Source of the DNA: Pirellulales bacterium
GTDB lineage: Bacteria > Planctomycetota > Planctomycetia > Pirellulales > JADZDJ01
Length of the DNA stretch: 64,000 nucleotides
Direction: 5' to 3'
Assembly: GCA_963719205.1 (NCBI GenBank)
Contig: CAVRAW010000005.1
Location: 280,958-344,957 of the forward strand
Position numbers and translations under genes: made by a program. Below are positions 43,967 to 64,000 of this stretch, one piece after another; the stretch's first letter is position 1; each line of letters begins with the position of its first letter. The notes under the pieces were generated by a model. It was given only the letters and a program-made list of their open reading frames with translations, was not told where the DNA came from and searched no databases.

Positions 43967-46900
43967 ATGCATGTCCTGGAGGCGATTCAAGTCTGCAAGG
44001 AATACGGCAATGGATCGATCAAGGTCCAAGCCTTACGCCACGTAGACCTGCGTGTGGAAGCCGGCGAGTTCTTAGCGATCATGGGTCCGTCCGGGTGTGG
44101 CAAGAGCAGCTTGCTGCACATCTTGGGTGCGGTCGACTTGCCGAGCTCTGGGCGGGTATTGCTCGATCGATGCGATTTGGGACTTCTGGACGATTTGGCA
44201 CGAAGCTTAATTCGTCGTCGCCGGATCGGCTTTGTGTTTCAGAAGATGAACCTGCTGCCGACGCTTTCGGCGCTGGAGAACGTTTCGCTGCCATTGCGGA
44301 TCGATGGTGTGGGGCGGATCGCCGCGCATGATCGATCGCATGCCGTCCTGCAACAAGTCGGCATGGCGCATCGTGCGACCCATTTTCCTCATGAGCTATC
44401 GGGTGGCGAGCAACAACGCATCGCGATCGCACGCGCCCTGGTAATCCGTCCGGCTGTCGTCTTGGCCGATGAACCAAGCGGTGCGCTCGACAGTAGCAAT
44501 GGCCAGCGGGTTTTAGATCTCTTATGCGAATGTTCGGCGCGCGGACAAACCGTTGTCATGGTGACCCACGATCCCAATTTGGCACGCCGGGCTGGCCGAG
44601 TGATTCAAATGTATGACGGGCGAATCGCCAACAGTGCCAGTACGCCGGATTGCGCCGGGCGTCTTCACCGTCGCACGCCAATAGGCCGCACAATGATGAA
44701 CCTCGCGCATCTGCTTGCTCGCCAGTGGCGACAGCGTCGCATGCGAACGCTGCTTTCGATTCTTAGTGTGTCGATTGCAACAGCCGTGGTATTGGGCACG
44801 TCTCTGGCGAACACTAGCGTCCGGCTCGGAAACCGCAAACTCCTGCAAGCGGTCGAACAGCATCCCACTTTGGAAATCATTTCGGTCGTCGGCGGGCGCT
44901 TTATGGCCGCGGACGTGCCGAGATTGAACGAAATCTCCGGAGTATCGGCCTCCATTCCCATCGTTACACGCAGCACATTGATCCGGGTGCAGGGGAAGCG
45001 GCTGCAAACTGTGGTGGTCGGTGTGGCGCCGGATCATAAGGAAGTCCGGGAGGAACTGTCCCTGGCCTCCAATCGATTCCTTCAACAGTCCCGCGACGTG
45101 CTGCTATCTGCCGACGTTGCCAAACGATTCAAAATCAACGCGGGGGACCGTCTCACGATGCTCACGCTTCGCGGCCCGCGAACGGCGACGATCGTCGGGT
45201 TGGTCGATTCGGCTGGGCTTGGGAGCCTGCGCCCGGGGCAAGCGTCGTGATGCCGATTGAGACCGTTCAAGATTGGTTCGGGCTCGAAGGGCAAGTGGAT
45301 CGGCTGCGAATTCCAATCGGTCCTCATGGGCAAATCGAGGCGGCGCGATCTGCCATTGTGCAGCGCCTACCCGAAGGCTTGGTCGTACAGTCGTCAGGGC
45401 GACAATTGGAATTAGCCGAAAATGTACTACGACCCATCGATCTGGCGTTGCGCTTTGCGGGCGGCGCTGTCGATGGCGATGGCCGCATTCATCATCTTGA
45501 ATACGTTGCGGATGAATTTTGCCGAGCGTCGGCACGACATGGGAGTGGTGCGTATGCTTGGGGCCACATCGCGACAGATTGCGGGATTGCACTTGCTGGA
45601 GGGACTTTGTCTGGGCCTGTGCGGATCACTATTGGGGATTCCGCTGGGGATTTGGCTGGGGCGAGGATTGGGGCAGGTGATGGGACTAGTTTTGGACACT
45701 GAGATCGTGACACCACAGATTGCTCCGTCCGCAATCGCCATCGCATTGGCGCTAGGACCCGTAGTGGCTTGCATCGCGGCGCTCGCGCCTGCCCTGCAAG
45801 CGCGCCACGTTTCCCCGATCGAGGCTGTGGGCGACTCAGAGTTGCGACAGGCGGAACGTTTTCCGCTGTGGGCCATCGGTATGAGCCTTGTGGCGTGGTG
45901 TGTCGCGACCGTGGTGCTGCTGCTGATTGCCCACGGGCTAATGCCGCCCGACACGGCCATTCCTGCAGGATTGTTAATGCTAGTGGCGTTCATCATGTTG
46001 ATTCCGGCAGTTCTTGGGCCGATTGTGCTGCGCTTCGGTGTGGTGTCTGGCGGGATGGATGAATGTTGAAGGGAAACTGGCAGCAGAACAACTGCTGCGA
46101 CGGCCTACTCGCACTGGTTTGACCGTCGGAGTGGTCGTCGTCGCGGTCAGCACGTGCTTGGGTTTGGGCAACGCAATTGTCAACAACGTGAACGACGTGC
46201 GGGGCTGGTTTCGTCGGACGATGCAGGGTGATGTTTTGGTCACCGACCCATCCTCGGCGGATCAAGCTGTCACGGTGCCTGCTCGGAGCCAAGTGCGAGA
46301 GATGATCGCTGGGCAGGAGGGGGTCGACTACCTCGTCGAGTTACACTTTTTTCCGGTCCGGATCAACGGGTCGCCCACGATGTGCGTCGCACGTGACTTT
46401 GCTCCACAGGCGGAGCTGCCATGGTCCCTACCCTCGGCCGTTGAGGCACATACGCGCGCCGCCTTATCCAGGGGCGATGCCGTAATCAGTAGCGTGATGG
46501 CCAAAAAGCTCGGACTGTCCATCGGTGACAAGTTCCAGATGGAAGCGCGCGGTCGAATCCTGTCAGGTCAGGTGGCTGCGGTCGTGAACGATTATTGGAT
46601 GGGGGGCACAGCAATCTTTCTGGAACGCGCTGCGGCCGCGGAATTGATCGACCTGGGACCGGCCAACATCTACATCGTACAGGCCAAGCATGACGCATCT
46701 GTGCAAGCTCTGCGCAACAGCCTGTCGGGCCTGGCGGATCGAGAAGGGCTAGTCGTCCATTCCTTTACGGAGCTGCGCGTCGAGGTCGATCAATTGATCA
46801 ATGGCGTGGTGGGCGCACTGTGGAGCGTGCTGGCCGTCGGCTTTGTGATTGGGGGAGTGGCTGTGGGCAATACGCTGACCATGAGCGTGTTTGAACAGAC

Positions 46901-47207
46901 GCGTGAGATCGGTTTGCTGCGAGTTGTGGGAATGACACGACGGCAGGTACGGAAGATGGTGGCCTGTGAAGCACTATTGCTGGGAATTGTAGGTGTTTTG
47001 ATGGGTATCTTGGCCGGCGCGACGACGGCGCTGATTATCCATCTATGCAATGAGCCGTTGCTCGACCGACCGATACCGTTTGTGTTCCATACCTGGCTGC
47101 TGGCAGTTAGCGCGGGTGGTGGTTTGTTGGTCGCGATGCTGGCTGCCTGGCCGCCGGGCTACCGGGCGGCGCAATTGGATTTGCTTTCTGCAATCGCTTA
47201 CGAGTGA
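43967..47207 (+). CDS. ABC transporter: MacB/LolD-type ATPase in frame with two FtsX-family permease domains, frame broken about 3 times
   Basis: Walker A GPSGCGKSS, LSGGEQQRIAIARAL and VVLADEPSGALD. Then MNLAHLLARQWRQRRMRTLLSILSV (FtsX TM1), a periplasmic domain, and LNTLRMNFAERRHDMGVVRMLGATSRQI (FtsX core 1). A second unit follows with LRRPTRTGLTVGVVV...MSVFEQTREIGLLRVVGMTRRQV. Shifts lie near 45245, 45455 and 46040. Confidence 0.8.
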
Positions 47208-48512: not shown

Positions 48513-49634
48513 ATGCAGTTTGGATTCTGTTACATTCCGGACTACCGCGCGAGCCAGCATGGCACGTACCAATCGTGGTACGAACGACTACTGCATGAAT
48601 GGAAGACAGCCGACGATTTGGGATATGACGCTTTATGGATCGCGGAACATCGCTTCCCTGGATATGGCTTCTGCTCGACACCCGTCGTGGCCCAGGCGAT
48701 TGCCGGCCGGACGGAACGGATTCGTATTGGTACCGCAGTGGTGCTGCTGCCACAACGGCATCCCGTACTGACGGCCGAGGATTGGGCGGCCGTGGATCTA
48801 CTCTCCGGCGGCCGCCTTAATTTCGGTATTGGACGCGGCATTTTTGCCTATGACTTCGCGACCGTTGGCGTGAGATCATCGGAATCGTGCGCGCTTCGAG
48901 GAGGCCTGGGAGATCATCCGCCGACTTTGGACCGAACAGCGGGTGACGTACCAGGGCAAATTCTGGTCGTTTATCGATCATTCGCTCGAGCCGCAGCCGC
49001 TACAAAAGCCAACGCCGCCCACATTCGTGGGTTGCATCGCGACGCCGGAATCGTATCGCTGGGCCGGCGCCAACGGCATGCACCTGATTGTGGCGCCATT
49101 TCTGCTCAAATCAACCGAACAGCAGCGGGAGCTGCTCGACATTTACCGCGACTCGCTCGCTGAGGCTGGCTACGAGCCGGCCAGCTTTCAGGTCATTGCC
49201 AACTACCATTTAGCGCTCGTGTCAAGTGAGGGCGAACTGCGGGACGCGGAACAATACCTTTTTCGGTACCTGGACTTTCTTGCGGACGCCGAGTCGAAGC
49301 AGAAATCGTATTTGGACAAGCAACAATACGCAGCCTACGCACCGGCCGAAGCTCGGTCGCGGGATGTAGAAGATGTGCGTGCGCATTGCGCGGTCGTCGG
49401 AACAGCGCAACAGTGCATCGATCGAATCGCCGAATTGGCAGAAGCGTGCGGGCTTTCCGGCTGGATGTTTCACATCAATTATGGCGGCGTACCGCACGAA
49501 CGTGTCATCGAACAGATGCATTTGTTCGCCGAGGATGTGATGCCGACTTTCGCGAGTCCACACGAATTGGCTGCCTCAACGGGTGGGGCGTTAGGCAGGA
49601 CCCGGTCGACGAGCGGTTCGGTTGCGACCATTGA
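48513..49634 (+). CDS. LLM-class (luciferase-like) flavin-dependent oxidoreductase, frame broken near 48873; 3' boundary ambiguous
   Basis: MQFGFCYIP.., LGYDALWIAEHRF and LLSGGRLNFGIGRG, then after removal of one base DHRNRARFEEAWEIIRRLWTEQRVTYQGKFW..GTAQQCIDRIAELAEACG..AEDVMPTF. As given, the frame reads on into the next domain without a stop. Confidence 0.8.
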
Positions 49635-49635
49635 A

Positions 49636-50751
49636 ATGGAGCCGCTTTCAAACGGCCGGCTTGCCTCGCCATGTGACGCTTGGAGCGCGACAGCGACCAA
49701 CGGCGACGCGCTTTCGCCCACACGCCTCCGGATTTCGACCGAACTGGCGAGCGGCGCACGAGATATGACCAGTCGGGCCGTGAGCTATTGGCGAAGTTGT
49801 GTATTGTTTGCCGCGAACAAACTGGAGATTTTCAGCACGGTTGGCCACCGAACGATGACCGCGGGCGACGTTGCCGGCGAACTGCAATTGGACGTTCGTG
49901 GCACTGAAAAGTTGTTGAATGCGTGCGCGAGTCTTGGCCTGATGCAGAAGGAAGGTTCGAGATATTCACTTTCCGAAGACAGCCGACTGTATCTAGACCG
50001 CTCGTCAAGCGTGTACTTGGGAGATTGGGTGGCGCACTGGGCCGACATGCTTGCAAAGGGCAATTGGCAGAGGCTCGACGAAGCGGTCCGCAGCGGGCAA
50101 CCAGTCGCCGCGGCACAGACCTTATTCGGATTCGACGATCGCCGCGATCCGATGCACAACTGGGTTGTCGGCATGCATGAAATGGGGGTCGCAGGACATG
50201 CCGACCTGCTCGCGTCCGCAGCGTCGATCGACAACGTGAGCAGCCTCTTGGACGTGGGAGGTGGGCCTGGAACTTACAGCATTTACTTGTGCCGTCGATT
50301 TCCTGCTCTTGAAGCCACCATCGTTGACGCACCCGATGTAGCAATCGTGGCGAAGAAGTTGATCGCCCAGGCGAATTTGAACGAACGGGTTCATATTGTA
50401 AATCTTGATTTTCGTACGCAAGGGCTTGGTCGAAAGTTTGACATCGTTCTACTCTCGAACGTTTTGCACATGTGTTGCAAAGCGGACGCCCTCTTGATGC
50501 TCCGTAACGCGGCAGGGCACCTCGCCCAGCGCGGTCGATTGGTGATTCAGGAGTGGATTTTGAACGACGACGCCACTGGGCCCGAGCTTGCCGCGCTTTT
50601 CGACTTGCATATGTTGCTCAATCCTAACGCCGATGTCTATCGGTTCTCGGAGTTGATCGAAATGATCACTCAGTGTGGCTTTCGATTGGTGGAGTCGATC
50701 CCGACCGGTGGTTTGTATGACTTGATGATTGCGCAAAGACAATGCGACTGA
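49636..50751 (+). CDS. class I SAM-dependent O-methyltransferase (COMT/dimerisation-domain type); separate gene or fused to the LLM domain
   Basis: Winged-helix/dimerisation part LFAANKLEIFSTVGHRTMTAGDVAGEL..LLNACASLGLM. SAM motif I LLDVGGGPGTYS, then DIVLLSNVLH. A candidate ATG at 49636 lies 1 nt after a TGA in the +1 frame. Confidence 0.75.
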   Translation: MEPLSNGRLASPCDAWSATATNGDALSPTRLRISTELASGARDMTSRAVSYWRSCVLFAANKLEIFSTVGHRTMTAGDVAGELQLDVRGTEKLLNACASLGLMQKEGSRYSLSEDSRLYLDRSSSVYLGDWVAHWADMLAKGNWQRLDEAVRSGQPVAAAQTLFGFDDRRDPMHNWVVGMHEMGVAGHADLLASAASIDNVSSLLDVGGGPGTYSIYLCRRFPALEATIVDAPDVAIVAKKLIAQANLNERVHIVNLDFRTQGLGRKFDIVLLSNVLHMCCKADALLMLRNAAGHLAQRGRLVIQEWILNDDATGPELAALFDLHMLLNPNADVYRFSELIEMITQCGFRLVESIPTGGLYDLMIAQRQCD

Positions 50752-52006: not shown

Positions 52007-52015
52007 GTGTTTGTC

Positions 52016-53473
52016 ATGTTCAATCTGTTCGAAGTATTTCGTCAGATGGCGAAGCGGCGACCTCGGCAGATCGCGTTGGTCGATTGTGATTTGCAAGAAT
52101 GCATGTCGTACGGCGAGCTGCTCGAGGAGGTCGAGCGATTTGCGCAATGTTTGCAGCGTGGCAAACTCCGCGCAGGCCAGTGCATCGGCTTGCATGTGCC
52201 CAGTGGCCGCAATTACATTTTGGCGACCTACGCCGCCTGGAAGTGCGGCGTCTGTGTCGTGCCCATCCCGATGGAATTGAGCACGCTGGAAAAGCAACTC
52301 ATTTGCGCGAGTATTGCCCAACATGGAATGCTGACTTGTGCGACTTCCACAATATTCTGGCAATCTTGGCAGCGCGGAGACGCCATACGACTGGGACCAC
52401 TTGAAATGGTTTTGCTCAAACCGGCGATTCGGCCGCCGGCAGGCCTCCAGGACATCAACGCGGCGTTCATTCGCTTCAGTTCGGGAACGACCGGTGACGC
52501 TAAGGGCGTCGTCCTTTCGCACGAAACGATTCTTGAACGAATCCACGCGGCCAACGAGGGATTGCATATTGGGCCGCGGGACCGTGTGGCCTGGCTGCTA
52601 TCGATGTCGTACCATTTCGCGGCATCCATCGTGGCTTACTTGTCGTTTGGCGCAACTGTCATCCTTCCAAAGCGAGAGCTGAATCTTGGAGGCGCCTTCA
52701 TCGATGCCGCGAGCCGATACGAGGCCACGCTGATCTACGGATCGCCGTTGCAGTACAAGCTGATGGCCATGGACCGCGGGAATCGTAGACTGGACACCGC
52801 ACGGATTGCGATTTCCACAGCTTCGTCGTTGTCGCGCGACACGGCCGAGTCGTTTTACAAGCGATTTGGCATCGCCTTGTCGCAGGTGTATGGCCTCATT
52901 GAAGTGGGGCTGCCGTGTATGAATTTGCGCTTTCCTTATGAGCACTATGATTCCGTCGGGCAGATGCTGCCGGCCTTCGAACTGCGATTGATCGACAGCG
53001 GCCACGGCGGCCACTTGAAAGAGATTCAACTGCGGGGGCGCGGATTTCTCGATGCTTACTACGACCCCTGGCAAACACGCCGTCAAATCATGCCGGACGG
53101 CTGGTTTCACACGGGGGATCTGGGCGAGGTGAACGAAGACGGGTGCCTGTTCATCCGTGGGAGATCCAAAGAGGTGATCAACGTAGGGGGCATGAAGGTT
53201 TTTCCTCGAGAAGTTGAGGCCGTGCTGCAATTACACCCGGCAATCAAAGAGGTGGCCGTCTTCGGAGTCCGCCAGATGCGAAGCCGAGAGTCGCTGTGGG
53301 CGGATGTGGTCATTCACCCCGAGGTCAAGACTCCGCCGAAGGAGAGCGAACTACGGCAATTTTGTGCCAAGCAATTGGCTCACTACAAGGTGCCGGAGCG
53401 AATCGCACTTGTGCCGCAACTGGCACGTACGGCGAGTGGCAAAGTCCTGCGTCGTGCAGTGGAATCCGCGTAA
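52016..53473 (+). CDS. AMP-dependent synthetase/ligase (fatty acyl-AMP/CoA ligase-like)
   Basis: Adenylation cores FSSGTTGDAKGV, GWFHTGDLG, GRSKEVINVGGMKV and ARTASGKVLRR. Directly abuts the previous stop (TAG 52004-52006); the alternative start is GTG at 52007. Confidence 0.88.
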   Translation: MFNLFEVFRQMAKRRPRQIALVDCDLQECMSYGELLEEVERFAQCLQRGKLRAGQCIGLHVPSGRNYILATYAAWKCGVCVVPIPMELSTLEKQLICASIAQHGMLTCATSTIFWQSWQRGDAIRLGPLEMVLLKPAIRPPAGLQDINAAFIRFSSGTTGDAKGVVLSHETILERIHAANEGLHIGPRDRVAWLLSMSYHFAASIVAYLSFGATVILPKRELNLGGAFIDAASRYEATLIYGSPLQYKLMAMDRGNRRLDTARIAISTASSLSRDTAESFYKRFGIALSQVYGLIEVGLPCMNLRFPYEHYDSVGQMLPAFELRLIDSGHGGHLKEIQLRGRGFLDAYYDPWQTRRQIMPDGWFHTGDLGEVNEDGCLFIRGRSKEVINVGGMKVFPREVEAVLQLHPAIKEVAVFGVRQMRSRESLWADVVIHPEVKTPPKESELRQFCAKQLAHYKVPERIALVPQLARTASGKVLRRAVESA

Positions 53474-53513
53474 CGAGATATCTTTCAGACCCTGCCACGT
53501 CGTGCGGATCAAT

Positions 53514-54362
53514 ATGCAACTGGGCAATTGGCAACTTGATACAGTCAGCGGGGGGACCTTTTGGCTGGACGGCGGCGTGATGTTCGGGGTCGTGCCCAAG
53601 TCGCTCTGGCAAGACATCGCAGCGCCGGACCCAATGAACCGCATCAAGTGCGCGAATAACTGCGTGTTGGCACGCGATGGTCGCCACACCGTGCTCATTG
53701 ATACTGGCTACGGTGGCAAGTTCTCGCCACTCGAGCGCAGGTTCTATGTCATGGAATCGGGTGAACCACTCTTGGCAAGCCTGGCCGCGTTGGGCGTGGC
53801 GGCGGAGGAGATCGACACGGTCGTCCTTAGCCATCTTCATTTCGACCACGTTGGCGGAGCGACTCGGCTTGATACACAGGGGCGGCGCGTCCCTGTCTTC
53901 ACTCGGGCGCGTCATTTCGTGAGCCGTTGCGAATGGGAGGACGCCACAAGCGGGAGTTCCGAACTCGCGTCCGCATATCCGCTGGATGACATTCTTCCGT
54001 TACGCGAAGCAGGTTTGATCAGGGTTGTAGAGGATGGACAAGAACTGCTGCCTGGGCTCCGCGGCCGCGTGACGGGGGGGCACACGCGTGGGCACATGTC
54101 GGTGTTTTTCGAATCCGGTGGTCAAACGACTGCCTATCTTGGAGATATTTGCCCGACGACCGCACATCTCAGGCGAATGTGGCATCTCGCGTATGACACC
54201 CACCCGTTGGATACTCGGCGGCGTAAGCCGGCACTGCTGAGCCAGGCAGCAGATGAGGGCTGCTGGGTCATCTGGAACCACGACCCGCGCGTGGCGGTCA
54301 GCCGAGTTGCCCGACATCCAAAGCGCGAATTTGTGGCGATCGATCGACGCGAGGCACTATAA
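53514..54362 (+). CDS. MBL-fold metallo-hydrolase
   Basis: ATG at 53514. Metal-binding motif LSHLHFDHVGG, with downstream GGHTRGH and WNHD. Confidence 0.85.
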   Translation: MQLGNWQLDTVSGGTFWLDGGVMFGVVPKSLWQDIAAPDPMNRIKCANNCVLARDGRHTVLIDTGYGGKFSPLERRFYVMESGEPLLASLAALGVAAEEIDTVVLSHLHFDHVGGATRLDTQGRRVPVFTRARHFVSRCEWEDATSGSSELASAYPLDDILPLREAGLIRVVEDGQELLPGLRGRVTGGHTRGHMSVFFESGGQTTAYLGDICPTTAHLRRMWHLAYDTHPLDTRRRKPALLSQAADEGCWVIWNHDPRVAVSRVARHPKREFVAIDRREAL

Positions 54363-54537: not shown

Positions 54538-56012
54538 ATGTCGCAACGGAAGTACACATTGCTGACTGGTGCAACGGGACTAGTAGGCGGTTATTTGCTC
54601 CGCGATTTTCTGAAGGCGGAAGTTGCGGTTGCCGTCCTGCGCGCTCGAACCACATGGCGTCCGCGGGGGGGCGGATCGACGCAGTTATGCGGCGTTGGGA
54701 GGACTTGGCCGGTTGCTTTTTGCCACGGCCTGTGGTGCTCGAAGGCGATCTTCGGGATCCTCATTTAGGGCTCAATGATCGCGACGCTGCTTGGGTCGCG
54801 GACAACTGTGATGCGGCCGTTCACAATGCAGCCAGCATGACGTTCCGCGAAGACAGCCACGGAGAGCCGTTCCGCACGAACGTCGACGGAATACGGAACT
54901 TGCTGGTAATTTGCGAACAGGCGGAGATCAGGAAATTCCATCATGTTTCGACGGCATACGTGTGCGGTCTTCGGGATAGTCTGATCTTTGAGGATGAACT
55001 GGACGTCGGCCAGCAAAACGGCAACGTTTACGAGATCAGCAAGTTGACCGCCGAGAAGATGGTGCGTGGGGCCGGATTTCTTAAGGAGTTGACAGTCTAT
55101 CGGCCCGCCAGCGTCGTTGGAGACTCGCAGACCGGTTACACCACGTCAACGCACGGCTTCTATTTGCCGCTGCAATTGGCCTATGCCATGGCCGACAAGG
55201 TTCCGACCCAGCTGATGGGCGACCGGTTCTTTCGGTTGCTTGGGCTGCAGGGAAACGAGGGCAAGAATCTGGTGCCGGTTGACTGGCTGTCAGCAGCGAT
55301 TGTGTACGTCGTGACTCACTCGGAGCACCATGGGAAGACGTATCACCTCACCAATCCATGCCCGGTGACGGTGCAGTGCATCCAGGAAGTGGTGCAAGAA
55401 GCCATTGAGAAGTATTCGTCGCGCCGCTTCGTCGGATCTCTGAGCGAGGAAGAGATTTCCCAATACGAGGAATTGTTTCGAAACTATATGGAGGTTTATC
55501 GGTCGCACTGGCGGGATGATCCGATCTTCGACCGTACAAACAGCGATGCTGCGCTCGCTCATTTGCCATGTCCACCGATTGATCATGATATGCTCCTGCG
55601 AATCGCGGGCTACCCGGTGCAGCAACGATTCATCTTGAAGCGCACGGCACCGACAGAGACTGGATTTCGGCCCCAAACTCATTTGCAGCGGTTTGCCCGC
55701 TGCGCCAGTCGGACAAATGGCAGCGCCGAGACAGAACAGAGCATCGGTATTAACATCACGGGCCGCGGTGGCGGACAGTGGCGAATCATTGTTCGCAATA
55801 ATCAGGTCGTGGGCATTGAATTGGGCCTGGGTTCCTTGGATCAGGCACAATTCTACATGAACTCAGACACATTTTTATCGCTTGTCGAAGGGCGATGTTC
55901 GGTTGACCAGTCGCTATGCGCTGGACGCATCTTCATCGAAGGCGGTAATGGTGGCATCGGCGGCCACCAGGAACACGTCAGGATTCTCGAGCACGTCGTC
56001 TCCTCTCGTTGA
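54538..56012 (+). CDS. thioester reductase-type SDR (NAD_binding_4 / fatty acyl reductase-like) fused to a C-terminal SCP2 lipid-binding domain, frame broken near 54642
   Basis: LLTGATGLVGGYLL (Rossmann), HNAASM, HHVSTAYVCG and YEISK (YxxxK). The C-terminal INITGRGGGQWRIIVRNNQVVGIELG..DTFLSLVEGRCSVDQSLCAGRIFIEGGNG is SCP2-like. ORFs 54538..54768 and 54654..56012 join at ..AVAVLRA|SNHMASAGGRIDAV. Confidence 0.8.
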
Positions 56013-56134
56013 GAAAATCGGCCGAACGGCAGAAAGCATTCTGCCGCGACACCAAGCGATGGCTGAACAACAAAGAGTTCAGACGGCTTGGATGCGCGAA
56101 TGATGAATGTGAAAGTCACGACGGTTCACAAGTT

Positions 56135-59100
56135 ATGAATAACTCCAAAGAGCGCACAAACGTTCCCGTGGCCATCATCGGCATGGCCTGCCGTTTACCT
56201 GGCGCTGACAATCTGGAGCAATACTGGGAGCTCTTGGTCGGCGGAAAGTGCGTTGTCGGCGAATTGCCGCACGAGCGTCTCGATCAGAGCATGTACTATG
56301 ATCCATGTCGTGGAAAGCGCGGCAAAACCTATTCGAAGCTTGGGGCCATCGTTTCGAGCCGCGACTTCGACCGCGGATCCTGCCCAATACCAACAGAATT
56401 AGAACGCAACGTCGACCTTGCGCATTTGCTGACGTGCCAGGTTGCAGCCGAGGCGTGCCGTCATGCCGGCCTAGATCCCTTCAATCTGCTGCTAAGGAAT
56501 ACGGGCGTCTACATCGGTCACGCACAAGGAAGCGACTTGTCCGGCGAATATATCTATGGCACTTGCATTGAAGAGGCCTGCGCAGTTTCTGCGCGAGGTT
56601 GAAGGCTTTCAGCAATTGCCGCCGGAGATGCAAGCGTCGGTTATCCGCGAGGTGGTCGAGACAGTCCGATCGGAAATGCCCAAACGAACGACAGACGCCC
56701 CGGACGTGGCGATTCACATGGCGGCGGGAACGATTTCCAAGGCCTTTGGGCTCACCGGCCCGTACATGGCGGTGAATTCAGCTTGTGCATCATCGCTGCA
56801 AACGATTCAGCTCGGTGTCCGCGCCTTGCAGATGGGGCGGATTGATATGGCCATTGTCGGTGGAGCTTCCGACCTCAAGTCGGACACGCTGGTCTTGTTC
56901 TCGCACGCCCAGTCGATGAGCGAAACCGGTTCGCGTCCTTTTGACGCCAGCGCCGACGGCCTGATTTGTTCTGAAGGCTACGTGGCTCTGGTGCTCAAGA
57001 CGTTGCCGAGGGCGCTAGCCGACGGCGACCCGATCCAGGCGGTCATTGTGGGATTAGGCGCTTCCTCGGACGGTCGAGGCAAGAGTCTGTGGGCGCCCGA
57101 AAGGAAGGGCAAATAAAGGCCATGGAGCGCGCCTACCGGAATGGAATCGACATGGCGTCGCTCCAATATATCGAGGCTCACGCGACATCGACGAGTCTCG
57201 GCGATGCCACAGAACTCAACACGTTGGTCGAAGTGTTCGGCCAGAAGTTTCCGCAGGGGAAAAGAATTCCAGTAGCCAGTGTCAAGGCGAACATCGGGCA
57301 CGCACTCGAATCGGCAGGTATCGCAGGCGTCATTAAGACCATCTTGTGCATGCAGCGTCGGACGATTGCCCCGGCAATCAATATTCAGTCACTCAACCCG
57401 AAGATCGATTGGGAAACGGCGCCAGTTTATGTCCCGCTGCAGCGCGAGAGCTGGCCGGAACAGCCCGATGGAACGCCACGTCGAGCCGCGGTAAACGCTT
57501 TTGGGATCGGCGGCTTAAATGTCCACATAGTCTTGGAAGAGTTTACCGAGGCGCGACGGTCCGAACTTTCTCAACCCTCCGCGAGAGAAGAACCTCAGTC
57601 GCTTCGCTCAGTGGGTGCCGCATCCTGGACGGCAGCCGAACATTCCGACCCCGACGCAATCGCCATTGTCGGAATGGGGTGCATATTCCCTGGCGCCTTG
57701 CATATAACGAAATTCTGGGAACTGCTTCGGTCCGGCCGCGACCCGAAGGGGCCCACGCCGCCTGGTCGATGGCGAGCCGATTTGGCGTATGAACGAGGCG
57801 CGCCAAAGCCCCACCGTACGCCGACGACGTTGGGCGGGTACATCACCGGCTTTGCTTACGATTGGAGGAAGCACAAGGTGCCGCCCAAGCAGGTCGAGCA
57901 GGCTGACCCCCTGCAATTCATGCTTCTGGAAGCGGTTGACCAGGCGCTTGCCGACGCGGGATACGACAAGCAGCCGTTTGACCGCTCGCGAGTGGGAGTG
58001 ATGGTCGGAACCCAATTTGGGAGCGATTTTGGTACGCAATTGGAGATCGGACTGAAGATCGTTCCTCTGGAAATCATGGTCCGGGAAGCCCTCGCCAAGC
58101 GGAGCGTTGTCGGCAGCGAGGCCGCGCAAATTGCTCGCAGTTCGCCGACGTCTTGGTGAAGCACTGGCCGGCCATCATCGACGAGACCGGCAGCTTTAGC
58201 ACAAGCACTCTCGCGTCGCGCATCACTAAGACCATGGATTTAATGGGAGGTGCCGCGGGGCTCGACAGTGGCTATACGTCGGCGGCCACGGCGCTGTCCG
58301 CCTGCAGGGACTTACTGCTGTCGGGTGATTGCGACATGATGATTTGCGCTGCAGGCCAACGGTGCATGACGCTGCCGCAATACGAAGGCATGGCGTTGGC
58401 AGGCATTCTTGCCACGAATGAGAGACCCGTCAGCCCATTTGATGCGAAGGCCAAAGGCGTAGTGCCCGCTGAAGGGGTCGGGGTGGTTCTCCTCAAGCGA
58501 CTTTCGGACGCCGTGCGCGACGGCAATCGCATCCACACAATCATCCGTGGAATTGGCGCCGTGCACGGCCGATCGGCCGACGAGGCGATGCGGCAGGCCA
58601 TGGAGCGCGCCCTCCAGGAGGCGTACGCAGCTCCTACCGACGTGGCCGCAATCGAACTGGACGGCACCGGTTTGCCAACGAGCGATGAGGAACAAATTCG
58701 CGCTGTGCTTTCGGTTTACGGCCAATCGCAACGGAAAGAGCCGCTCCTGTTGAGCACGATCGTGGGTCAGATTGGGCATACGATTGGCGCTTCGGCGATG
58801 GCATCGCTTATCAAGGCCAGCATGGAGGTCGAAAAAGGGGAGATGCCGGGCACCGTTGGTCTTGAATCACCGCTGGCGATCCTGCCTCAGAACTCCAGCG
58901 CGATCCGTGCCTCGACCGTTTTGCAGCCGATTCGTCACATGACCCCCGATGGACGACGATTGGTAGCCGTCAGCTCGTTCGGGAAGGGACTTGCTTATCA
59001 TATTTTGCTGGAACGCGGCGAACGTGTCCCCGTGATCGATGCCGCGATAAAATCCCCTGGGCTGCGGAAGGCCGACCCACGACGGCTCGTCACGACAGCG

Positions 59101-60584
59101 GCGCCGATTGGTGAAGAATTGGCCGCGGCCGACGCAATCCTTGGTTCGTCCAGAAGCAAATTCAGAATCTGTCGGCTGGGAGCTGCGACGCCGGACGAAT
59201 TAGACGCCAAAATCAAAGAGTCGCTAGGGGATTGCGCCGCAGTATTTGCGGCTGGCGAGTTCGCTCCGTTCGCCCCTGCCGATCCGTGCGCCTGGCCATC
59301 GTGGCCGACAGTGTGGAAATGCTGTCCCGGAAGTTGCAATCGGCCGCAAAGCAGTGGCGAAATCCAGATGCGGTGCCGGTATTGGAACAGCAGGGTTGCT
59401 TCTATCGGACGACTGGGGTGCGGCAACCGAGGGTGGCATTTCTATTCCCGGGACAAGGGTCGCACTATCACGGAATGCTTCGCGAGCTTGTTCGGGACGT
59501 GCCGGCTGCCGCTGCTGCAATGCGCGCGATGGACGCGGTGATGATGCAGCACGGCTTGCAGACGTTTGGGCAAATGGCCTGGGAGAATCCGAACGAACTG
59601 GGCAGCGACATTTGGGTGACACAGGTCGTAATGTTGCTGGCCGATTTGATTGTCCATGCGGCCATTATGGATCTGGGCGTGCGACCGGACTTGATTGCCG
59701 GCCACAGCTACGGCGAATTGGCGGCGATAACCGCTGGCACCTCATGGGACCTTGAGACAGCCATTACCGCGGCCAGAGCACGCTACGAGAGTATCGAAGC
59801 CACTCCTAGCGCCCGCGGTTTCATGCTGGCCACTGATGCCGGACCGCAACAGATCGAGCAATTGGCAGCCCTGCTGTCCAATCCAGTTTATGTTGCCAAT
59901 ATCAATGCGCCGGATCAAGCGGTCGTTGGAGGTCGCATCGAAGGTTTGAAGGAACTGGCTGGGTTACTGGAATCGCGAGGCCAAGTCGCCCAGATACTCT
60001 CGGTGCCCTGCCCCTATCACACGCCGCTGATGGAGGGAGTCGGCGCTTTGTTCAAGCGAACGCTGGATGCACTGTCGATCCACCCTCCGCGTGTGCCAAT
60101 GCTTTCGACGGTGACCAACCGCTACGTAGCCGAACCGGACGAGATTCGCTCAAACCTCGCCGCTCAACTCACAACGCCAGTGCGTTATTTAGAACTGGTA
60201 CAGCGCATTGCCGATGAACAATACACGGTGTTCGTAGAAGTCGGACCACAACAAGCGCTGACAAGGCTCAACCGTCGAATTCTGGAAGGTCGCGAAGTGG
60301 CAGGGATAATCGCTTGTGACAACCCGAAGCGAGCCGGATTGGAGCAACTACTGCAGGTGAGAGCTTTGCTTGAGTGCGTGGGAGGGCTGCCGGCGCCATC
60401 GGCGGCGCAACCGGTCCACATAACTGCAAAGCCTGCGGCAACCCCCGAAGCAATCCGATTGAAAAAGGGAAGCATTACCCACATCGATGCGACGGAGCGG
60501 CGCCGCCAAAAGATGCGACAAGCGGCGACAAAAGTGTCCTCAACCGCCGGTTCCGAAAACGGATGCAGTCACCAGCGATTATGA
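56135..60584 (+). CDS. type I PKS / PUFA-synthase-like subunit A: KS - inactive KS (CLF-like) - acyltransferase; frame broken 4 times
   Basis: KS1 carries VAIIGMACRLPGA, active-site VNSACASSL, EAHATSTSLGD and KANIGHALESAG. KS0 carries IAIVGMGCIFPGA, but LDSGYTSAATAL (Cys to Tyr) and ELDGTGLPTSD (His to Asp). AT carries FLFPGQGSHY, GHSYGE and PYHTPLM. Shifts lie at 56557-56590, and near 57098, 58142 and 59284. The stop overlaps the next ATG (ATGA at 60581-60584). Confidence 0.88.
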
Positions 60585-63500
60585 CGCAATCGCATGGCTC
60601 AAAGTCGCTTGTTGCACGTACGGATTCCCAACCGGCGGCCAGAACATCAATGCCCGCCGGCCGGCCTGCGCCGGATTCTTTGCCACCTGCGCGACTTGCG
60701 CCTCGAGATGCCGGTGGGGCTGGGCCGCCGCCGAGGTTGGCGCCGGCTCCCAAATCGTCCGCCGTGCTTGCGGCAACTGGAATACCGGAGCGGGCTGAGA
60801 ATTGGTCGGGCGCCTCGGACGCCGACGTACACGAGCCGCACCAATCGAAAGAGCAGAACACAGCCGAGTTGGAGCAGTTTTTGATTAACTTCGTGGTGGA
60901 GCAGACCGGTTATCCGCCGGAGGTCGTGGAGTTGGATGCGGATCTGGAGGCGGACTTGGGCATCGACAGCATCAAGAAGGCGCAAATGTTCGGCGAGCTG
61001 CGTGAGTACTTCGACGTCACGCCCACGGACAACCTGACGCTGGATGATTTTCCGACATTGCGGCACATCGTGAATTTCCTGGCCGCCGCCCCGCAAAAAG
61101 CTGCACCGCAAAAAACGGCCGCAACAGCAGTCGCGGCGCCTGCTCCGCAGGCTCCGCAGCCTGCTTCGCCACCCGCAGTTCATGCCGTGTACGCGCCGGT
61201 TGCTCGCCGGACTGGCGAGTCTGTCCCGGCGAGCCGGCCCACGCCAGCGGCCGCGCCGAACGTCGACACAGCCGAGTTGGAGCAGTTTTTGATCAACTTC
61301 GTGGTGGAGCAGACCGGTTATCCGCCGGAGGTCGTGGAGTTGGATGCGGATCTGGAAGCGGACTTGGGCATCGACAGCATCAAGAAGGCGCAAATGTTCG
61401 GCGAGCTGCGTGAGTACTTCGACGTCACGCCCACGGACAACCTGACGCTGGATGACTTTCCGACATTGCGGCACATCGTGAATTTCCTGGCCGCCGCCCC
61501 GCAAAAAGCTGCACCGCAAAAAACGGCCGCAACAGCAGTCGCGGCGCCTGCTCCGCAGGCTCCGCAGCCTGCTTCGCCACCCGCAGTTCATGCCGTGTCC
61601 GCGCCGGTTGCTCGCCGGACTGGCGAGTCTGTCCCGGCGAGCCGGCCCACGCCAGCGGCCGCGCCCAACGTCGACACAGCCGAGTTGGAGCAGTTTTTGA
61701 TCAACTTCGTGGTGGAGCAGACCGGTTATCCACCGGAGGTCGTGGAGTTGGATGCGGATCTGGAGGCGGACTTGGGCATCGACAGCATCAAGAAGGCGCA
61801 AATGTTCGGCGAGCTGCGTGAGTACTTCGACGTCACGCCCACGGACAACCTGACGCTGGATGACTTTCCGACATTGCGGCACATCGTGAATTTCCTGGCC
61901 GCCGCCCCGCAAAAAGGATCGGCTATGCCGGTGCCGTTGCCTGCTGAAAGGAAGGATTCAGCGGCGGGAACTGCTGTGTCATCCGCGGATAGCCTGGCCG
62001 CTCGGGCGAACATCACCGTCGGTGCCGTCGCGGCTACAGAGCCCAGGGGCCTCACAAACGTCGACGTGCTATACCTGCGAGGATCTTCCTACGAGATGGG
62101 CTACCAACAGGGTATCGAAAAAAAGGCGGAAATTCGGCGCATTCTGCGGCGACTTGTCGACCTCACGGACGGAGACTGGAGCGAACTGCCGATTCCGCCT
62201 GCCGCACTGGAGCAACCGGAGCGGTTCTTTTCCGCCGATGAGCTTGAGGAATTGCGTGGGCTGGCAGACGCCGTTGAGGTTCCACAATCCAATTTACAGG
62301 CGCTGAATCTGGCGTTTCGCGGCGACCTGTCAGGAAATTGTGCCCAGGTGGGCATTGCTCCAAACAGCCGCAGCGCGGCAAGCGTTTTGCACGGCTTCGT
62401 TGGCGACCTCTCATTGCCGCCGGCGCTCGTGGAAATGTTATGTCCGTTCATCGCAGTGCGCGAACCGGCTCATGGCTGGGCCTGTGCGACAGTGAGTTTT
62501 CCGGGAATGGCAGGCAGTCTTGTGGGCGTGAATGGCAACGGGCTAGCTGCGTCGCTTGGCGCTCTTTTGAATGGGCAGGATCGATCGAGCGGCCCCGTTC
62601 ATGTCGGTCCGAGCTTACGAGTCGAAGATGTGCTGCATCGTGACGGAACGATTACTCAGGCCAAAGCGAGTTTGCAGGCAAGTCGCTTACCACAGGGCTG
62701 GGTGGGACTTCTCAGCCGTTCGGGCGAAGGACGTATGTGCGTCGTTGAGCACGACGGATCAGAAATTGCGGCGCTGGAACGCGACGACCAACTATTTGCC
62801 ACGAATCACTGTCTTGTGCGCCGGAATGCATCCCCGGCACCAGCACGATCGACGGAGCGATTAGCCTGGTTGCAGCAGCGGCTGAGCGGACCGCGTGTTC
62901 CGAACAACGCGGCCGAATTGCTCGGGGCATTGGGAGAGTTGCCATCGCAGGCATCAATGCGAATTGTGGTCGTCGTCGACGCAGCGGGGGGCGATCTCTT
63001 GTTGCAGCATAATTCAACTCAAGAGCGGATTCACGTGGCGCACTTTTGCCCTGTCACCCCGCCGGGGACGTCGAAATCGCGCTCGCGGGCAATACCACGA
63101 TTGGCGACGTGGAAAACCCAGAGTGCGAAAGCCAAGATCTTCACTACGACGTGAATGAGGAAGGCCAGTACTTACGCTTTACGCTGCGCATGCGACCGTT
63201 CCCGTGGGAGACAAAGCCGGCCGAGTTTCCAAATTGGAAAGGGGCTGCTGCAATCCACGGCAATGGGGCAATGGCCGAGGCCCTGCAGCGCCGCTTGATT
63301 GCCGGCGGTGCAACCGTAGTTCGATTGCACGAATCGGATTCGCCAGAGGCGGCCGTGGCTGAATTCGAGCGCCTCTCACGGTTCCACGATCGCACACTTG
63401 TTCCTCACCTCCCTTCGCGACGAACAGCGGTTGGAACGTATCGATTCTGCTGATTGGAATCGACTCGTCGAGCGTCAGCTCCAGGTGCCGTATTTCCTCT

Positions 63501-64000
63501 GTCAGCGATTTTTTCAGTTGGCGGGCGACGCCCGACGGCTCGACGACTGTAGCGTGGTCGCGCTGGTCGACCTCGGCGGAGATTTCGGCTTCTCCGGGAA
63601 TGTGGCGACCCCCGAATCGGGCTTTCTGACGGGGCTGATGAAGGAACTTTACCTGGAACACTCGATCGTGCGTGGCTTCAAGCACGTCCGCTGCAAAGCG
63701 ATCGATGCGCCCCGCGGGGAAGAGCCCGACGTGCTGGCGGCCAATATCTGTCGCGAGCTCGCGGGTGGGACCAACGACTACGAGGTCGCATTCGTCGAGG
63801 GTCGGCGGTATGTGCAGGTGGCCCTGCCTGCGGCGGCAAAACTCGAGCCACACAGTGCAGTCCGGCCGGGAGGTACCTGGGTAGTGACCGGCGGCGCCCG
63901 GGGGATTACGGCCGAGTGTGCTTTTGAACTAGGCCGTCGATTCGGATTGAAGTTGCACCTGATCGGCAGGTCGCGGCTGGCCAGTATCGACCCGTCGTGG
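60581..64000 (+). CDS. type I PKS / PUFA-synthase-like subunit B: 3 tandem ACPs - C45/Ntn-hydrolase (IAT-like acyltransferase) domain - ketoreductase; partial at the right edge; frame broken twice
   Basis: Three copies of ELEQFLINFVVEQTGYPPEVVELDADLEADLGIDSIKKAQMFGELREYF (Ser in DSI). LRGSSYEMGYQQG...SGNCAQVG...FPGMAGSLVGVNGNGLAASL...FATNH is peptidase-C45/AAT-like. KR structural part HGNGAMAEALQRRLIAGGATVV and catalytic Rossmann GTWVVTGGARGITAECAF..LHLIGRS. Shifts lie near 63050 and 63385, and the ORF is open at 64000. Confidence 0.85.
60861..61915 (+). repeat. 408-bp tandem DNA repeat (~2.6 copies) encoding the ACP units plus Ala/Pro linkers
   Basis: Units begin at 60861, 61269 and 61677, an exact 408-nt period. 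Only a handful of substitutions separate the copies (e.g. gattaac/gatcaac, gatgatttt/gatgacttt, tacgcg/tccgcg). Confidence 0.9.

What the first reader, a model, noticed from the sequence alone, without database searches (positions are those of the whole stretch)
62058..63045. In-line peptidase-C45 / isopenicillin-N-acyltransferase-like Ntn-hydrolase domain between the ACPs and the KR of a PKS
After the third ACP the polypeptide reads VDVLYLRGSSYEMGYQQGIEKKAEIRRIL ... ALNLAFRGDLSGNCAQVGI ... SFPGMAGSLVGVNGNGLAASL ... LFATNHCL.

This matches what I recall of the C45/AAT family (PF03417): an N-terminal G-x-x-YE-x-G-x-x-x-G motif, a Gly-Cys nucleophile site (Cys codon at 62339-62341), a G-x-N-x-x-G-L motif and a late (T/A)NH motif. 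Members of this family transfer acyl groups from thioesters to amines or water.

An embedded copy next to carrier proteins could act as an off-loading or transacylating domain in place of a thioesterase. I am not aware of this domain being a standard PKS/PUFA-synthase module.
Basis: partly seen in the sequence, partly recalled or inferred. Interest (0 to 1): 0.8.

Follow-up and report, generated by a model that had tools for sequence, protein, structure and literature searches.

The report
Eroded C45 acyltransferase-like domain inside PKS

Summary
The segment 62060-63043 is a real C45/isopenicillin-N-acyltransferase-type Ntn-hydrolase-fold domain.

- **Family match.** NCBIfam NF040521 scores 86.4 bits against a cutoff of 85. 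A profile of ten in-line copies hits the acyltransferase structure 2X1C at E=3.6e-15. The AlphaFold2 model's best structural match is 2X1C, and its strand begins exactly at Cys104.
- **In-line position.** It shares one ORF with three tandem ACPs. The link to the KR is broken in the window by a one-base deletion near 63040. Five orthologous genes from other assemblies are uninterrupted (3,667 aa in a Pirellulales genome).
- **Not unique.** At least 86 database clusters longer than 1,000 aa carry the domain internally. One is Planctopirus limnophila WP_013109934.1, where Pfam AAT scores 50 bits. I found no paper that describes it.
- **Catalytic signature.** About three quarters of in-line copies keep Gly-Cys, Asn-x-Asp, Arg, Asn and Asn-His. 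The window's lineage does not. The window reads Asn-Cys rather than Gly-Cys, the Asn is Val, and orthologues carry Ser or Ala in place of Cys.
- **Still under constraint.** The domain is as conserved as the KR and DH domains.

Most likely it is a non-catalytic scaffold or ACP-docking module. Release would then fall to the neighbouring reductase or condensation-like enzymes. Residual activity in the window's own copy, which keeps Cys and Asp, is not excluded.

The parts
62060..63043 (+). C45/IAT-like Ntn-hydrolase-fold domain ('X'), residues 563-890 of ORF 60374-63154
   Evidence: NF040521 86.4 bits, E=2.2e-24. Profile against 2x1c E=3.6e-15. AF2 model pLDDT 74, pTM 0.80, first strand residues 13-18 and last strand 333-338 of the query that starts at 62030. 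Foldseek top hit 2x1c_A.
62060..62338 (+). Segment equivalent to the alpha subunit (propeptide): one strand, then helices. It carries the YEMGYQQG motif at 62090-62113.
   Evidence: Model helices 20-103. It aligns with IAT residues 6-102. G18, G24 and G28 are invariant among in-line copies.
62339..62341 (+). Cys codon at the family's nucleophile column. It is preceded by Asn (62336-62338), not Gly.
   Evidence: hhalign puts this column on the nucleophile Cys of free-standing C45 proteins. Strand E104-109 starts here. Orthologues have Ala or Ser at this position.
62390..62407 (+). H-G-F-V-G-D, the counterpart of H-x-x-N-x-D in canonical in-line copies and of Q-G-Q-N-W-D in IAT. Asp is kept, Asn is replaced by Val, and there is no Arg.
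   Evidence: Column tabulation and alignment.
62459..62461 (+). Arg144, conserved in 77 of 86 long in-line proteins and kept here
62531..62533 (+). Asn168 of the G-x-N-x-x-G motif, conserved in 81 of 86 and kept here
62801..62812 (+). T-N-H-C motif, identical to IAT 'TNHC'. Asn259 and His260 are conserved in 73 and 71 of 86.
63037..63046 (+). Frame break at the end of the domain. 'cacgtggcgcac' reads HVAH, where orthologues read HVGALLP. A one-base deletion in a G run explains it.
   Evidence: Sequence, three-frame translation, orthologue sequences.
60878..61897 (+). Three tandem ACP domains (about 60878-61081, 61286-61489 and 61694-61897)
   Evidence: Pfam PP-binding, 3 stretches, E=1.4e-31. 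408-bp tandem repeat at 60858-61916, 98% identical.
56009..60584 (+). KS, KS/CLF-like and AT domains of the same megasynthase, spread over several reading frames
   Evidence: Pfam. Collinear with residues 11-1574 of the intact L002 ORF, with frame changes near 56570, 57105, 58110, 59250 and 60540.
63046..64000 (+). KR: structural subdomain at 63046-63400 in a second frame, catalytic subdomain from about 63401 in the first frame (GTWVVTGGARGIT). It runs off the window end.
   Evidence: Three-frame translation. tblastn against the L002 protein reaches residue 2570.
54654..56012 (+). Stand-alone NAD_binding_4 (thioester/fatty-acyl reductase-like) gene directly upstream; candidate chain-release enzyme
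   Evidence: Pfam PF07993, E=3.4e-32. Syntenic in L001, L002 and L082.
52007..54362 (+). AMP-binding enzyme (52007-53473) and metallo-beta-lactamase-fold protein (within 53214-54362) of the same cluster
   Evidence: Pfam. The same order is seen in L001.

Best explanation
**What it is (shown).** The segment is a peptidase-C45 / acyl-CoA:isopenicillin-N acyltransferase-type Ntn-hydrolase-fold domain. It is translationally fused between the tandem ACPs and the first KR of an iterative, PUFA-synthase-like type I PKS: KS-KS/CLF-AT-ACP3-C45-KR(-KR-DH). The organism is probably a Pirellulales planctomycete. The domain belongs to a large, uncharacterised family of such in-line domains.

**How the family probably works (inferred).** About three quarters of in-line copies keep the full signature: Gly-Cys, Asn-x-Asp, Arg, Asn and Asn-His. 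By analogy with IAT and acid ceramidase, these copies would self-cleave before the Cys. The new N-terminal Cys would then take an acyl group from the neighbouring ACP thioester, or cut an amide on it.

**How this copy probably works (inferred).** The window belongs to a separate in-line lineage in which that signature has decayed while the rest of the domain stays under purifying selection. Here it most likely no longer acts as an Ntn hydrolase or acyltransferase. It would survive as a structural, dimerisation or ACP-docking module. Chain release would be done by the adjacent stand-alone thioester reductase and/or, if this cluster has it as the orthologous loci do, the condensation-like acyltransferase.

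**Confidence split.** About 0.95 for identity and in-line position. About 0.5 for the non-catalytic reading.
For: **Identity**
- NF040521 scores 86.4 bits against a cutoff of 85.
- A profile of ten in-line domains hits 2x1c at E=3.6e-15 over chain residues 6-334.
- hhalign against free-standing proteins gives probability 100% and E=1.8e-38. Nine of nine scanned free-standing relatives pass the PF03417 threshold.
- The AF2 model has pTM 0.80, and Cys104 is the first residue of a strand.
- Foldseek ranks IAT first, then acid ceramidase, NAAA and bile-salt hydrolases.

**In-line position**
- The ACPs and the domain share one ORF in the window.
- Five orthologous genes of 2,768-3,814 aa are complete and uninterrupted.
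- Of the top 149 of 342 relatives, 86 are longer than 1,000 aa with an internal match.
- P. limnophila WP_013109934.1 reads KS-KS-AT-ACP4-AAT(50.2 bits)-KR-DH-DH.

**Erosion of the signature**
- Long in-line proteins keep Gly(-1) in 71 of 86, Cys in 65, Asn in 72, Asp in 73, Arg in 77 and Asn in 81.
- The window's lineage reads as follows (preceding residue-nucleophile position | Asn position.Asp position): NC|V.D (window), NA|V.E (L002), GS|V.E (L082), SA|A.E (L083), NS|A.E (P0123), N-A (L001).
- In related Cys-Ntn enzymes the free N-terminal Cys and the Asp/Arg pair are needed for cleavage and catalysis (PMC5915598; PMC2692852).

**Retention**
- Domain identity among L002, L082, L083 and P0123 is 57-62%. 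The KR domains are at 60-66% and the DH at 59-60% (among L002, L082 and L083). The X-KR linker is at 41-44%.

**Alternative release enzymes**
- In the orthologous loci of this lineage (L001, L002, L082) an NAD_binding_4 reductase lies upstream, and a PPTase, an SDR and a condensation-like protein lie downstream. The window itself shows only the upstream reductase, because it ends inside the KR.
- The canonical-signature loci examined lack the reductase, the PPTase and the condensation-like gene.
Against: - The window's own copy, its closest relative L003 and P0001 still have Cys at the nucleophile column. The window also keeps the Asp. Arg144, Asn168, Trp224, Ser229 and Thr-Asn-His-Cys are retained, so a modified catalytic mechanism is possible.
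- The residue before the nucleophile is not Gly in every Cys-Ntn hydrolase, so Asn-Cys does not by itself exclude cleavage.
- Strong conservation of the domain is also what an active enzyme would show.
- The clade assignment rests on a rough neighbour-joining tree that produced numerical warnings.
- No biochemical data exist for any in-line member.
- The model's MSA consisted mostly of free-standing C45 proteins, and pLDDT is only 74.
Confidence: 0.5

Rival explanations
1. The domain is an active Cys-dependent transacylase or hydrolase. It takes the finished chain from the adjacent ACP thioester onto Cys104, after self-cleavage at Asn-Cys, and passes it to water or to an amine or hydroxyl acceptor. 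It would replace a thioesterase.
For: - No TE domain is present in the synthase or its orthologues.
- The domain sits immediately after the ACPs.
- IAT forms acyl-enzyme intermediates from acyl-CoA thioesters (PMC2692852).
- The window keeps Cys104, Asp126, Arg144, Asn168 and Thr-Asn-His.
- Most in-line relatives keep the complete signature, so this is the likely ancestral role.
Against: - Orthologues in the same lineage with the same architecture have Ala or Ser instead of Cys, Glu instead of Asp, and no Asn or Arg.
- The lineage's clusters carry a stand-alone reductase, and the orthologous loci also a condensation-like enzyme, that can release the chain.
- Activity would also need self-cleavage of the megasynthase, for which there is no evidence.
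Confidence: 0.2
2. The domain is an on-line amidase that edits an ACP-tethered intermediate, for example by removing an N-acyl protecting group. The stand-alone C45 enzymes AzsT and Tri14 do this on carrier-protein-bound succinyl-hydrazinoacetate.
For: - AzsT, a C45 peptidase, hydrolyses a succinyl amide on a carrier-protein-bound substrate (PMC10445470).
- An AMP-binding loading enzyme lies in the cluster.
- The domain is adjacent to the ACPs.
Against: - The same erosion of the catalytic signature applies.
- No aminotransferase, amino-acid-loading or succinyl/acetyl-transferase gene was seen in the flanks examined.
Confidence: 0.07
3. The domain is a decaying relic with no remaining role, kept only because deleting it would disturb the megasynthase.
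For: The catalytic positions vary freely within the lineage.
Against: - The domain is 57-62% identical among orthologues, like the KR and DH domains, and more conserved than the X-KR linker.
- Long blocks such as LPPALVEML, VREPAxGWACATV and GSLVGxNGxGLAAS are nearly invariant in the lineage.
- No orthologue has deleted it.
Confidence: 0.1
4. The whole gene is a pseudogene in this organism, and the frame breaks are real, so the domain is not expressed in-line.
For: About seven frame changes lie within 8 kb of the gene, and a stop at 63152-63154 follows the domain.
Against: - Each frame segment keeps 45-65% identity to the intact L002 protein, with no in-frame stops inside a segment.
- The two other broken relatives (L001, L003) carry long-read-style contig names and appear to be broken at other positions.
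- All assemblies with short-read-style contig names are intact.
- The break at 63040 is a one-base loss in a G run.
Confidence: 0.08

Closest known systems
Acyl-CoA:isopenicillin N acyltransferase (IAT, penDE; PDB 2X1C/2X1D/2X1E; MEROPS C45; Pfam PF03417; NCBIfam NF040521)
   Same: - Same fold and family: best sequence-profile hit and best structural hit.
- Same N-terminal G-x-x-[YF]-E-x-G-x-x-x-G, G-x-N-x-x-G and T-N-H-C motifs.
- A helical segment of about 90 residues precedes a Cys that starts a beta strand.
   Different: - IAT is a free-standing 357-aa proenzyme that must self-cleave at Gly102-Cys103 (PMC2692852).
- Here the domain is embedded in a synthase of more than 3,400 aa.
- The site reads Asn-Cys, the Asn of Asn-x-Asp is Val, and the nucleophile is not conserved among orthologues.
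- Sequence identity is about 17%.
In-line C45 domains of planctomycete type I PKSs, e.g. Planctopirus limnophila WP_013109934.1 (UniProt D5SX03) and Bremerella WP_224438666.1. These are database entries with no publication found.
   Same: - Same position between the ACPs and the KR in KS-KS-AT-ACPn-C45-KR-DH synthases.
- Homologous domain, about 26-30% identical.
   Different: - Those copies keep Gly-Cys, Asn-x-Asp, Arg, Asn and Asn-His, and pass the Pfam threshold (50.2 bits).
- The five examined have one KR.
- In the three metagenomic loci whose flanks were examined, no adjacent reductase, PPTase or condensation-like genes were seen.
- The window's lineage has two KRs where the gene is complete (L002, L082, L088), several ACPs and an eroded signature.
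AzsT / Tri14: stand-alone C45 peptidases of azaserine and triacsin biosynthesis
   Same: C45-family enzymes that act on carrier-protein-tethered substrates (PMC10445470).
   Different: They are separate proteins. They work as amidases that remove a succinyl group in NRPS-type pathways. They are not fused to a synthase.
Free-standing planctomycete 'C45 family autoproteolytic acyltransferase/hydrolase' proteins (about 400 aa, e.g. Gimesia, Isosphaeraceae)
   Same: Closest free-standing relatives, 25-33% identical, sharing the YEMGYQQG motif.
   Different: They have N-terminal hydrophobic leaders, His-Cys or Gly-Cys with H-G-R-x-x-D, and no PKS context. Some are fused to an alpha/beta-hydrolase domain.
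In-line off-loading acyltransferases of PUFA synthases (e.g. the AGPAT domain of myxobacterial Pfa3). This comparison is from my own knowledge.
   Same: The concept of a chain-transfer domain fused into a PUFA-synthase-like megasynthase.
   Different: Unrelated fold and chemistry, and a different position in the synthase.

Membership tests
Peptidase C45 / IAT-like Ntn hydrolases (NCBIfam NF040521, Pfam PF03417) | Score above the curated cut-off of the family HMM | tested here: met
   - NF040521 gives 86.4 bits against a cutoff of 85, E=2.2e-24, profile positions 1-281 of 313. The margin is narrow.
- Pfam PF03417 is NOT met by the window copy (13.3 bits against 23.2).
- PF03417 is met by in-line homologues: L089 29.5, P0135 41.9, P0146 50.2.
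Peptidase C45 / IAT-like Ntn hydrolases | Alpha-beta-beta-alpha Ntn fold with the nucleophile as the first residue of a central beta strand | tested here: met
   - AF2 model: pTM 0.80, pLDDT 74, strand 104-109 starts at Cys104.
- Foldseek: 2x1c_A E=1.6e-15, TM 0.69, followed by acid ceramidase, NAAA and BSH.
- This is a model, not a structure.
Peptidase C45 / IAT-like Ntn hydrolases | Conserved Cys nucleophile at a Gly-Cys self-processing site | tested here: inconclusive
   - The window has Cys at the right column, preceded by Asn.
- Orthologues of the same lineage have Ala (L001, L002, L083) or Ser (L082, P0123).
- 65 of 86 long in-line proteins have Cys and 71 of 86 have Gly(-1).
Peptidase C45 / IAT-like Ntn hydrolases | Asp with its Asn or Arg partner on the neighbouring strand (N-x-D in IAT, R-x-x-D in BSH and acid ceramidase) | tested here: not met
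   - The window reads F-V-G-D: Asp is present, with neither Asn at -2 nor Arg at -3.
- Lineage relatives have Glu.
- Canonical in-line copies have Asn in 72 of 86 and Asp in 73 of 86.
Peptidase C45 / IAT-like Ntn hydrolases | Autoproteolytic processing into alpha and beta chains | not testable with these tools
   Needs protein expression and mass spectrometry.
Peptidase C45 / IAT-like Ntn hydrolases | Acyl-transfer or amidohydrolase activity through an acyl-Cys intermediate | not testable with these tools
   Needs enzymology.
PUFA-synthase-like iterative type I PKS ('secondary lipid synthase') | KS plus a second KS/CLF-like domain, AT, tandem ACPs, KR and DH on one polypeptide | tested here: met
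   - Pfam on the window fragments.
- Pfam on intact orthologues L002, L082, L088, L087, L089, L092 and P0146.
- Tandem ACP repeat.
- No ER or TE domain was found.
Thioesterase (alpha/beta-hydrolase) release domain | Alpha/beta-hydrolase fold with GxSxG | tested here: not met
   There are no such Pfam hits, and the fold search returns only Ntn hydrolases.
   The model and HMMs assign the Ntn fold. The KR structural subdomain begins only after 63046.

The most novel reading that the evidence does not exclude
In-line C45 domains are a new kind of PKS module. They would cut the megasynthase in two by autoproteolysis before the Cys. The two halves would stay together through the alpha/beta heterodimer. 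The new N-terminal Cys would then act as a covalent acyl acceptor that unloads the adjacent ACPs onto water or an amine or hydroxyl acceptor. The window's copy, which still has Cys104 and Asp126, would retain this activity through an Asn-Cys cleavage site.
Probability: 0.15. Interest if true: 0.85.

Novelty: new variant of a known kind. Interest (0 to 1): 0.55.

Why it matters
**Why the architecture is unusual**
- Ntn hydrolases are active only after they cut their own chain. A C45 domain fused into the middle of a polyketide/PUFA-type megasynthase therefore implies one of two things. Either the synthase splits itself into two chains and uses an unusual Cys-based release or editing step, or an enzyme fold has been recycled as a scaffold.
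- In five literature searches I found neither described for PKSs.

**Scale and testability**
- The family is large: at least 86 sequence clusters at 50% identity.
- From the sources I could trace, it is concentrated in Planctomycetota.
- It occurs in cultured strains. One is Planctopirus limnophila, for which the title and abstract of PMC11958385 report genetic tools for the phylum. The question is therefore directly testable.

**What the window adds**
- It is a natural comparison case: a lineage in which the nucleophile and its partners have drifted while the domain is kept.
- This bears on how catalytic domains turn into structural ones inside assembly lines.
- For this particular locus the practical message is more modest. 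The domain should not be annotated as the chain-release enzyme.

Tried and rejected
Translating 62058-63045 as given produces stops. The correct frame starts at 62060.
- **Single-sequence searches are too weak alone.** Pfam gave 13.3 bits and phmmer against PDB gave E=0.27. Profiles and NCBIfam were needed.
- **The search for homologous proteins.** With the window domain and then with the ten-sequence in-line profile it returned only two fragments. The word index probably missed the relatives. The exhaustive representative search and contig scans found them.
- **The search for related loci.** A trimmed three-sequence alignment worked.
- **Structure prediction.** The MSA was rebuilt from the window, P0001, P0002 and 27 free-standing C45 proteins.
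- **Literature.** Five searches found no description of an in-line C45 domain in a PKS: 'peptidase C45' with PKS; Planctomycetes with PUFA synthase; C45/Ntn/ACP; 'aminopenicillanic acid acyl' with PKS; and Planctopirus with PKS. Full-text term searches in three papers found none either: Shulse & Allen 2011, a 2026 PUFA-hybrid survey and a 2025 planctomycete metabolism review. The IAT structure paper (PMID 20223213) is not held.
- **Rejected readings.** Degenerate DH or pseudo-KR was rejected because the fold is Ntn. A separate ORF for the domain was rejected because it shares an ORF with the ACPs here and with the whole synthase in orthologues.
- **HMMER register around the nucleophile.** HMMER placed IAT Cys103 five columns away from the window Cys, with low posterior confidence. 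I rejected this register in favour of the hhalign column and the model.
Full report
**1. What is in the sequence**

ORF 60374-63154 (+) encodes three almost identical ACPs. Pfam PP-binding finds 3 stretches at E=1.4e-31. They sit on a 408-bp tandem repeat at 60858-61916 that is 98% identical.

Three details need correcting:
- The start coordinate 62058 is out of frame; the domain begins at 62060.
- The nucleophile site reads Gly-Asn-Cys, so the residue before Cys is Asn, not Gly.
- After ...ERIHVAHF the ORF drifts out of frame and stops at 63154.

The KR structural subdomain continues in another frame at 63046-63400. The catalytic KR (GTWVVTGGARGIT) returns to the first frame and runs off the window end.

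**2. Is it really in-line?**

The whole synthase in the window is broken into frame segments. Changes lie near 56570, 57105, 58110, 59250, 60540, 63040 and 63400. The segments are nevertheless collinear with, and 45-65% identical to, a single 3,667-aa ORF in a Pirellulales MAG (L002, JBBDNV010000185). That contig's name has the length/coverage style of a short-read assembler.

L002 reads KS-KS/CLF-ACP-AT-ACP-ACP-X-KR-KR-DH without interruption. Four metagenomic orthologues have equally complete, uninterrupted genes of 3,814, 3,767, 2,768 and 2,896 aa (L082, L083, L087, L089). Six more show continuous reading frames that run to a contig end. Domain orders were checked for five of these.

Two other relatives with long-read-style contig names (L001, L003) are also fragmented, apparently at other positions. 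At 63037-63046 the window reads 'cacgtggcgcac' (HVAH), where orthologues read HVGALLP. One missing G restores the frame.

I conclude the frame breaks are indel errors and the ACP-X-KR fusion is real. A true pseudogene is a minor alternative.

**3. Is it a C45/IAT-type domain?**

Single-sequence tests are weak. Pfam PF03417 gives 13.3 bits against GA 23.2. phmmer against PDB gives 2x1c at E=0.27. Stronger tests agree with each other:
- NCBIfam NF040521 'C45 family autoproteolytic acyltransferase/hydrolase' scores 86.4 bits against a cutoff of 85, E=2.2e-24.
- A profile of ten in-line copies hits the isopenicillin-N acyltransferase structures 2x1c and 2x1d at E=3.6e-15 over almost the full chain. 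The next hits are other Cys-Ntn hydrolases.
- hhalign against seven free-standing relatives, six of which I had scanned and found above the Pfam AAT threshold, gives 100% probability and E=1.8e-38.
- An AlphaFold2 model has pLDDT 74 and pTM 0.80. It shows a helical N-terminal part and a beta strand that begins exactly at Cys104.
- Foldseek ranks the IAT precursor first (E=1.6e-15, TM 0.69), then acid ceramidase, NAAA and bile-salt hydrolases.

The DH and pseudo-KR alternatives are excluded.

**4. How common is the architecture?**

An exhaustive HMMER search of 1.84 billion representatives found 342 relatives at E≤1e-3 and 134 at E≤1e-10. Of the best 149, 86 are longer than 1,000 aa and 49 longer than 2,000 aa, with the match internal.

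Named examples:

| Protein | Organism | Length | Note |
|---|---|---|---|
| WP_013109934.1 / D5SX03 | Planctopirus limnophila | 3,527 aa | KS-KS-AT-ACP4-AAT-KR-DH-DH; Pfam AAT 50.2 bits at residues 2113-2343 |
| WP_224438666.1 | Bremerella | 3,558 aa | type I polyketide synthase |
| HET6422737.1 (partial) | Planctomycetaceae bacterium | 2,245 aa | named by NCBI after the C45 family |

The architecture is therefore already visible to annotation pipelines. Five literature searches, plus full-text term searches in three relevant papers, found no description of it.

**5. Catalytic signature**

I aligned all hits to the in-line profile and tabulated the key columns for proteins longer than 1,000 aa:

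| Column | Conserved in (of 86) |
|---|---|
| Gly(-1) | 71 |
| Cys | 65 |
| Asn of N-x-D | 72 |
| Asp | 73 |
| Arg144 | 77 |
| Asn168 | 81 |
| Trp224 | 73 |
| Ser229 | 68 |
| Asn259 | 73 |
| His260 | 71 |

This is the pattern expected of active Cys-Ntn enzymes. IAT needs Gly102-Cys103 self-processing (PMC2692852). In acid ceramidase the free N-terminal Cys, the Asp and the Arg are needed (PMC5915598).

The window's lineage is different (preceding residue-nucleophile position | Asn position.Asp position):
- window: NC|V.D
- L002: NA|V.E
- L082: GS|V.E
- L083: SA|A.E
- P0123: NS|A.E
- L001: N-A
- L003 and P0001: N-C

A rough neighbour-joining tree places the window in a clade of in-line domains where all four positions vary. 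This clade is apart from the large canonical Gly-Cys / Asn-x-Asp clade. A third group has Gly-Gly with the other residues intact. The tree is indicative only.

**6. Is the domain still under selection?**

Among L002, L082, L083 and P0123 the domain is 57-62% identical. The KR domains are at 60-66% and the DH at 59-60% (among L002, L082 and L083). The X-KR linker is at 41-44%. Blocks such as LPPALVEML, VREPAxGWACATV and GSLVGxNGxGLAAS are almost invariant. The domain is therefore kept for some function that does not need the nucleophile.

**7. Genomic context**

In the orthologous loci of this lineage (L001, L002, L082) the synthase is preceded by a stand-alone NAD_binding_4 thioester-reductase-like gene. 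In the window and L001, AMP-binding and metallo-beta-lactamase-fold genes lie further upstream. In the orthologous loci a PPTase, an SDR and a condensation-like protein follow the synthase. The window ends inside the KR, so its downstream genes are not visible.

The canonical-signature loci examined (L087, L089, L092) have a downstream SDR. Two of them have upstream LolA-like and/or FtsX/MacB genes. None has the reductase, PPTase or condensation-like genes.

The window also has a MacB-type ABC transporter at 43967-47207. Together these suggest an exported lipid product. In the window's lineage, release enzymes exist outside the C45 domain.

**8. Interpretation**

*Shown:* the domain's identity, its fold class, its in-line position, its wide occurrence and the erosion of the signature in this lineage.

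*Inferred:*
- Canonical in-line copies are self-cleaving acyl-ACP-directed acyltransferases or hydrolases. Alternatively they are amidases like AzsT, which acts on carrier-protein-bound substrates (PMC10445470).
- The window's copy is most likely a non-catalytic scaffold or ACP-docking module (about 0.5).
- Smaller weights go to an on-line amidase, a functionless relic and a true pseudogene.

**9. Verdict**

The feature is a new variant of a known enzyme family in an unusual, uncharacterised context. That context is already detectable in public databases. The window's representative is probably catalytically eroded.

Interest is moderate (0.55). The family-level question of whether a PKS cuts itself with an embedded Ntn domain is the interesting part. 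It is testable in Planctopirus limnophila.

Noticed in passing
window 60858-61916: The three ACPs sit on a 408-bp tandem repeat with 98% identical copies. This suggests recent duplication or gene conversion. In an error-prone assembly the true ACP number could differ from three. The long antisense ORF 60647-61912 (421 aa) is probably just a by-product of this GC-rich repeat.
   Followed up: partly
window 56000-64000 (also 48943-50751 and 54654-56012): The PKS gene has about seven frame changes in 8 kb. The upstream reductase lacks the start of its NAD_binding_4 domain. ORF 48943-50751 joins the C-terminal half of a luciferase-like monooxygenase to an O-methyltransferase. The window seems to carry many indel errors, so ORF calls elsewhere in it should be treated with care.
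   Followed up: partly
L002 residues 995-1061 versus window 58153-59541: The intact orthologues L002 and L082 have an extra ACP between the second KS and the AT. I saw no PP-binding hit at the corresponding place in the window.
   Followed up: no
P0150, P0154, P0198, P0214, P0129, P0156, P0194: A separate group of in-line domains has Gly-Gly instead of Gly-Cys but keeps Asn-x-Asp, Arg (6 of 7), Asn and Asn-His. This is a second, independent loss of the nucleophile with the rest of the site intact.
   Followed up: no
cluster of P0150: The 2,703-aa protein also occurs in other assemblies as two proteins of 925 and 1,778 aa, which sum to exactly 2,703. This is a split or frameshifted form of the same synthase. 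The split is not at the C45 domain.
   Followed up: no
L015 177-2384; also L022, L024, L027, L038, L053, L056, L059, L060: About 740-aa free-standing planctomycete proteins carry the C45 domain at their N-terminus. In L015, the one scanned, it is followed by a C-terminal alpha/beta-hydrolase domain (Peptidase_S9/DLH-like).
   Followed up: partly
L005 10001-10745 (Planctomycetaceae MAG ABC1.68): A 45%-identical match to the N-terminal part of the domain, split over three short ORFs in different frames. It may be another broken in-line or stand-alone copy.
   Followed up: no
window 43967-47207; L087 459-3015; L089 450-1211: MacB-type ABC transporter genes lie near the synthase in the window. LolA-like and FtsX/MacB genes lie near it in canonical-clade loci. 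This hints that the product is a lipid exported to the outer membrane.
   Followed up: partly
window 62483-62485 (Cys152 in GWACATV): A Cys invariant in the window's lineage but absent from the canonical in-line copies lies on a strand of the central sheet.
   Followed up: no
P0288 in the cluster of P0213: A 487-aa fragment of the Bremerella-type synthase is deposited as 'mas, partial [Symbiodinium sp. CCMP2456]'. It is probably bacterial contamination in a dinoflagellate assembly.
   Followed up: no
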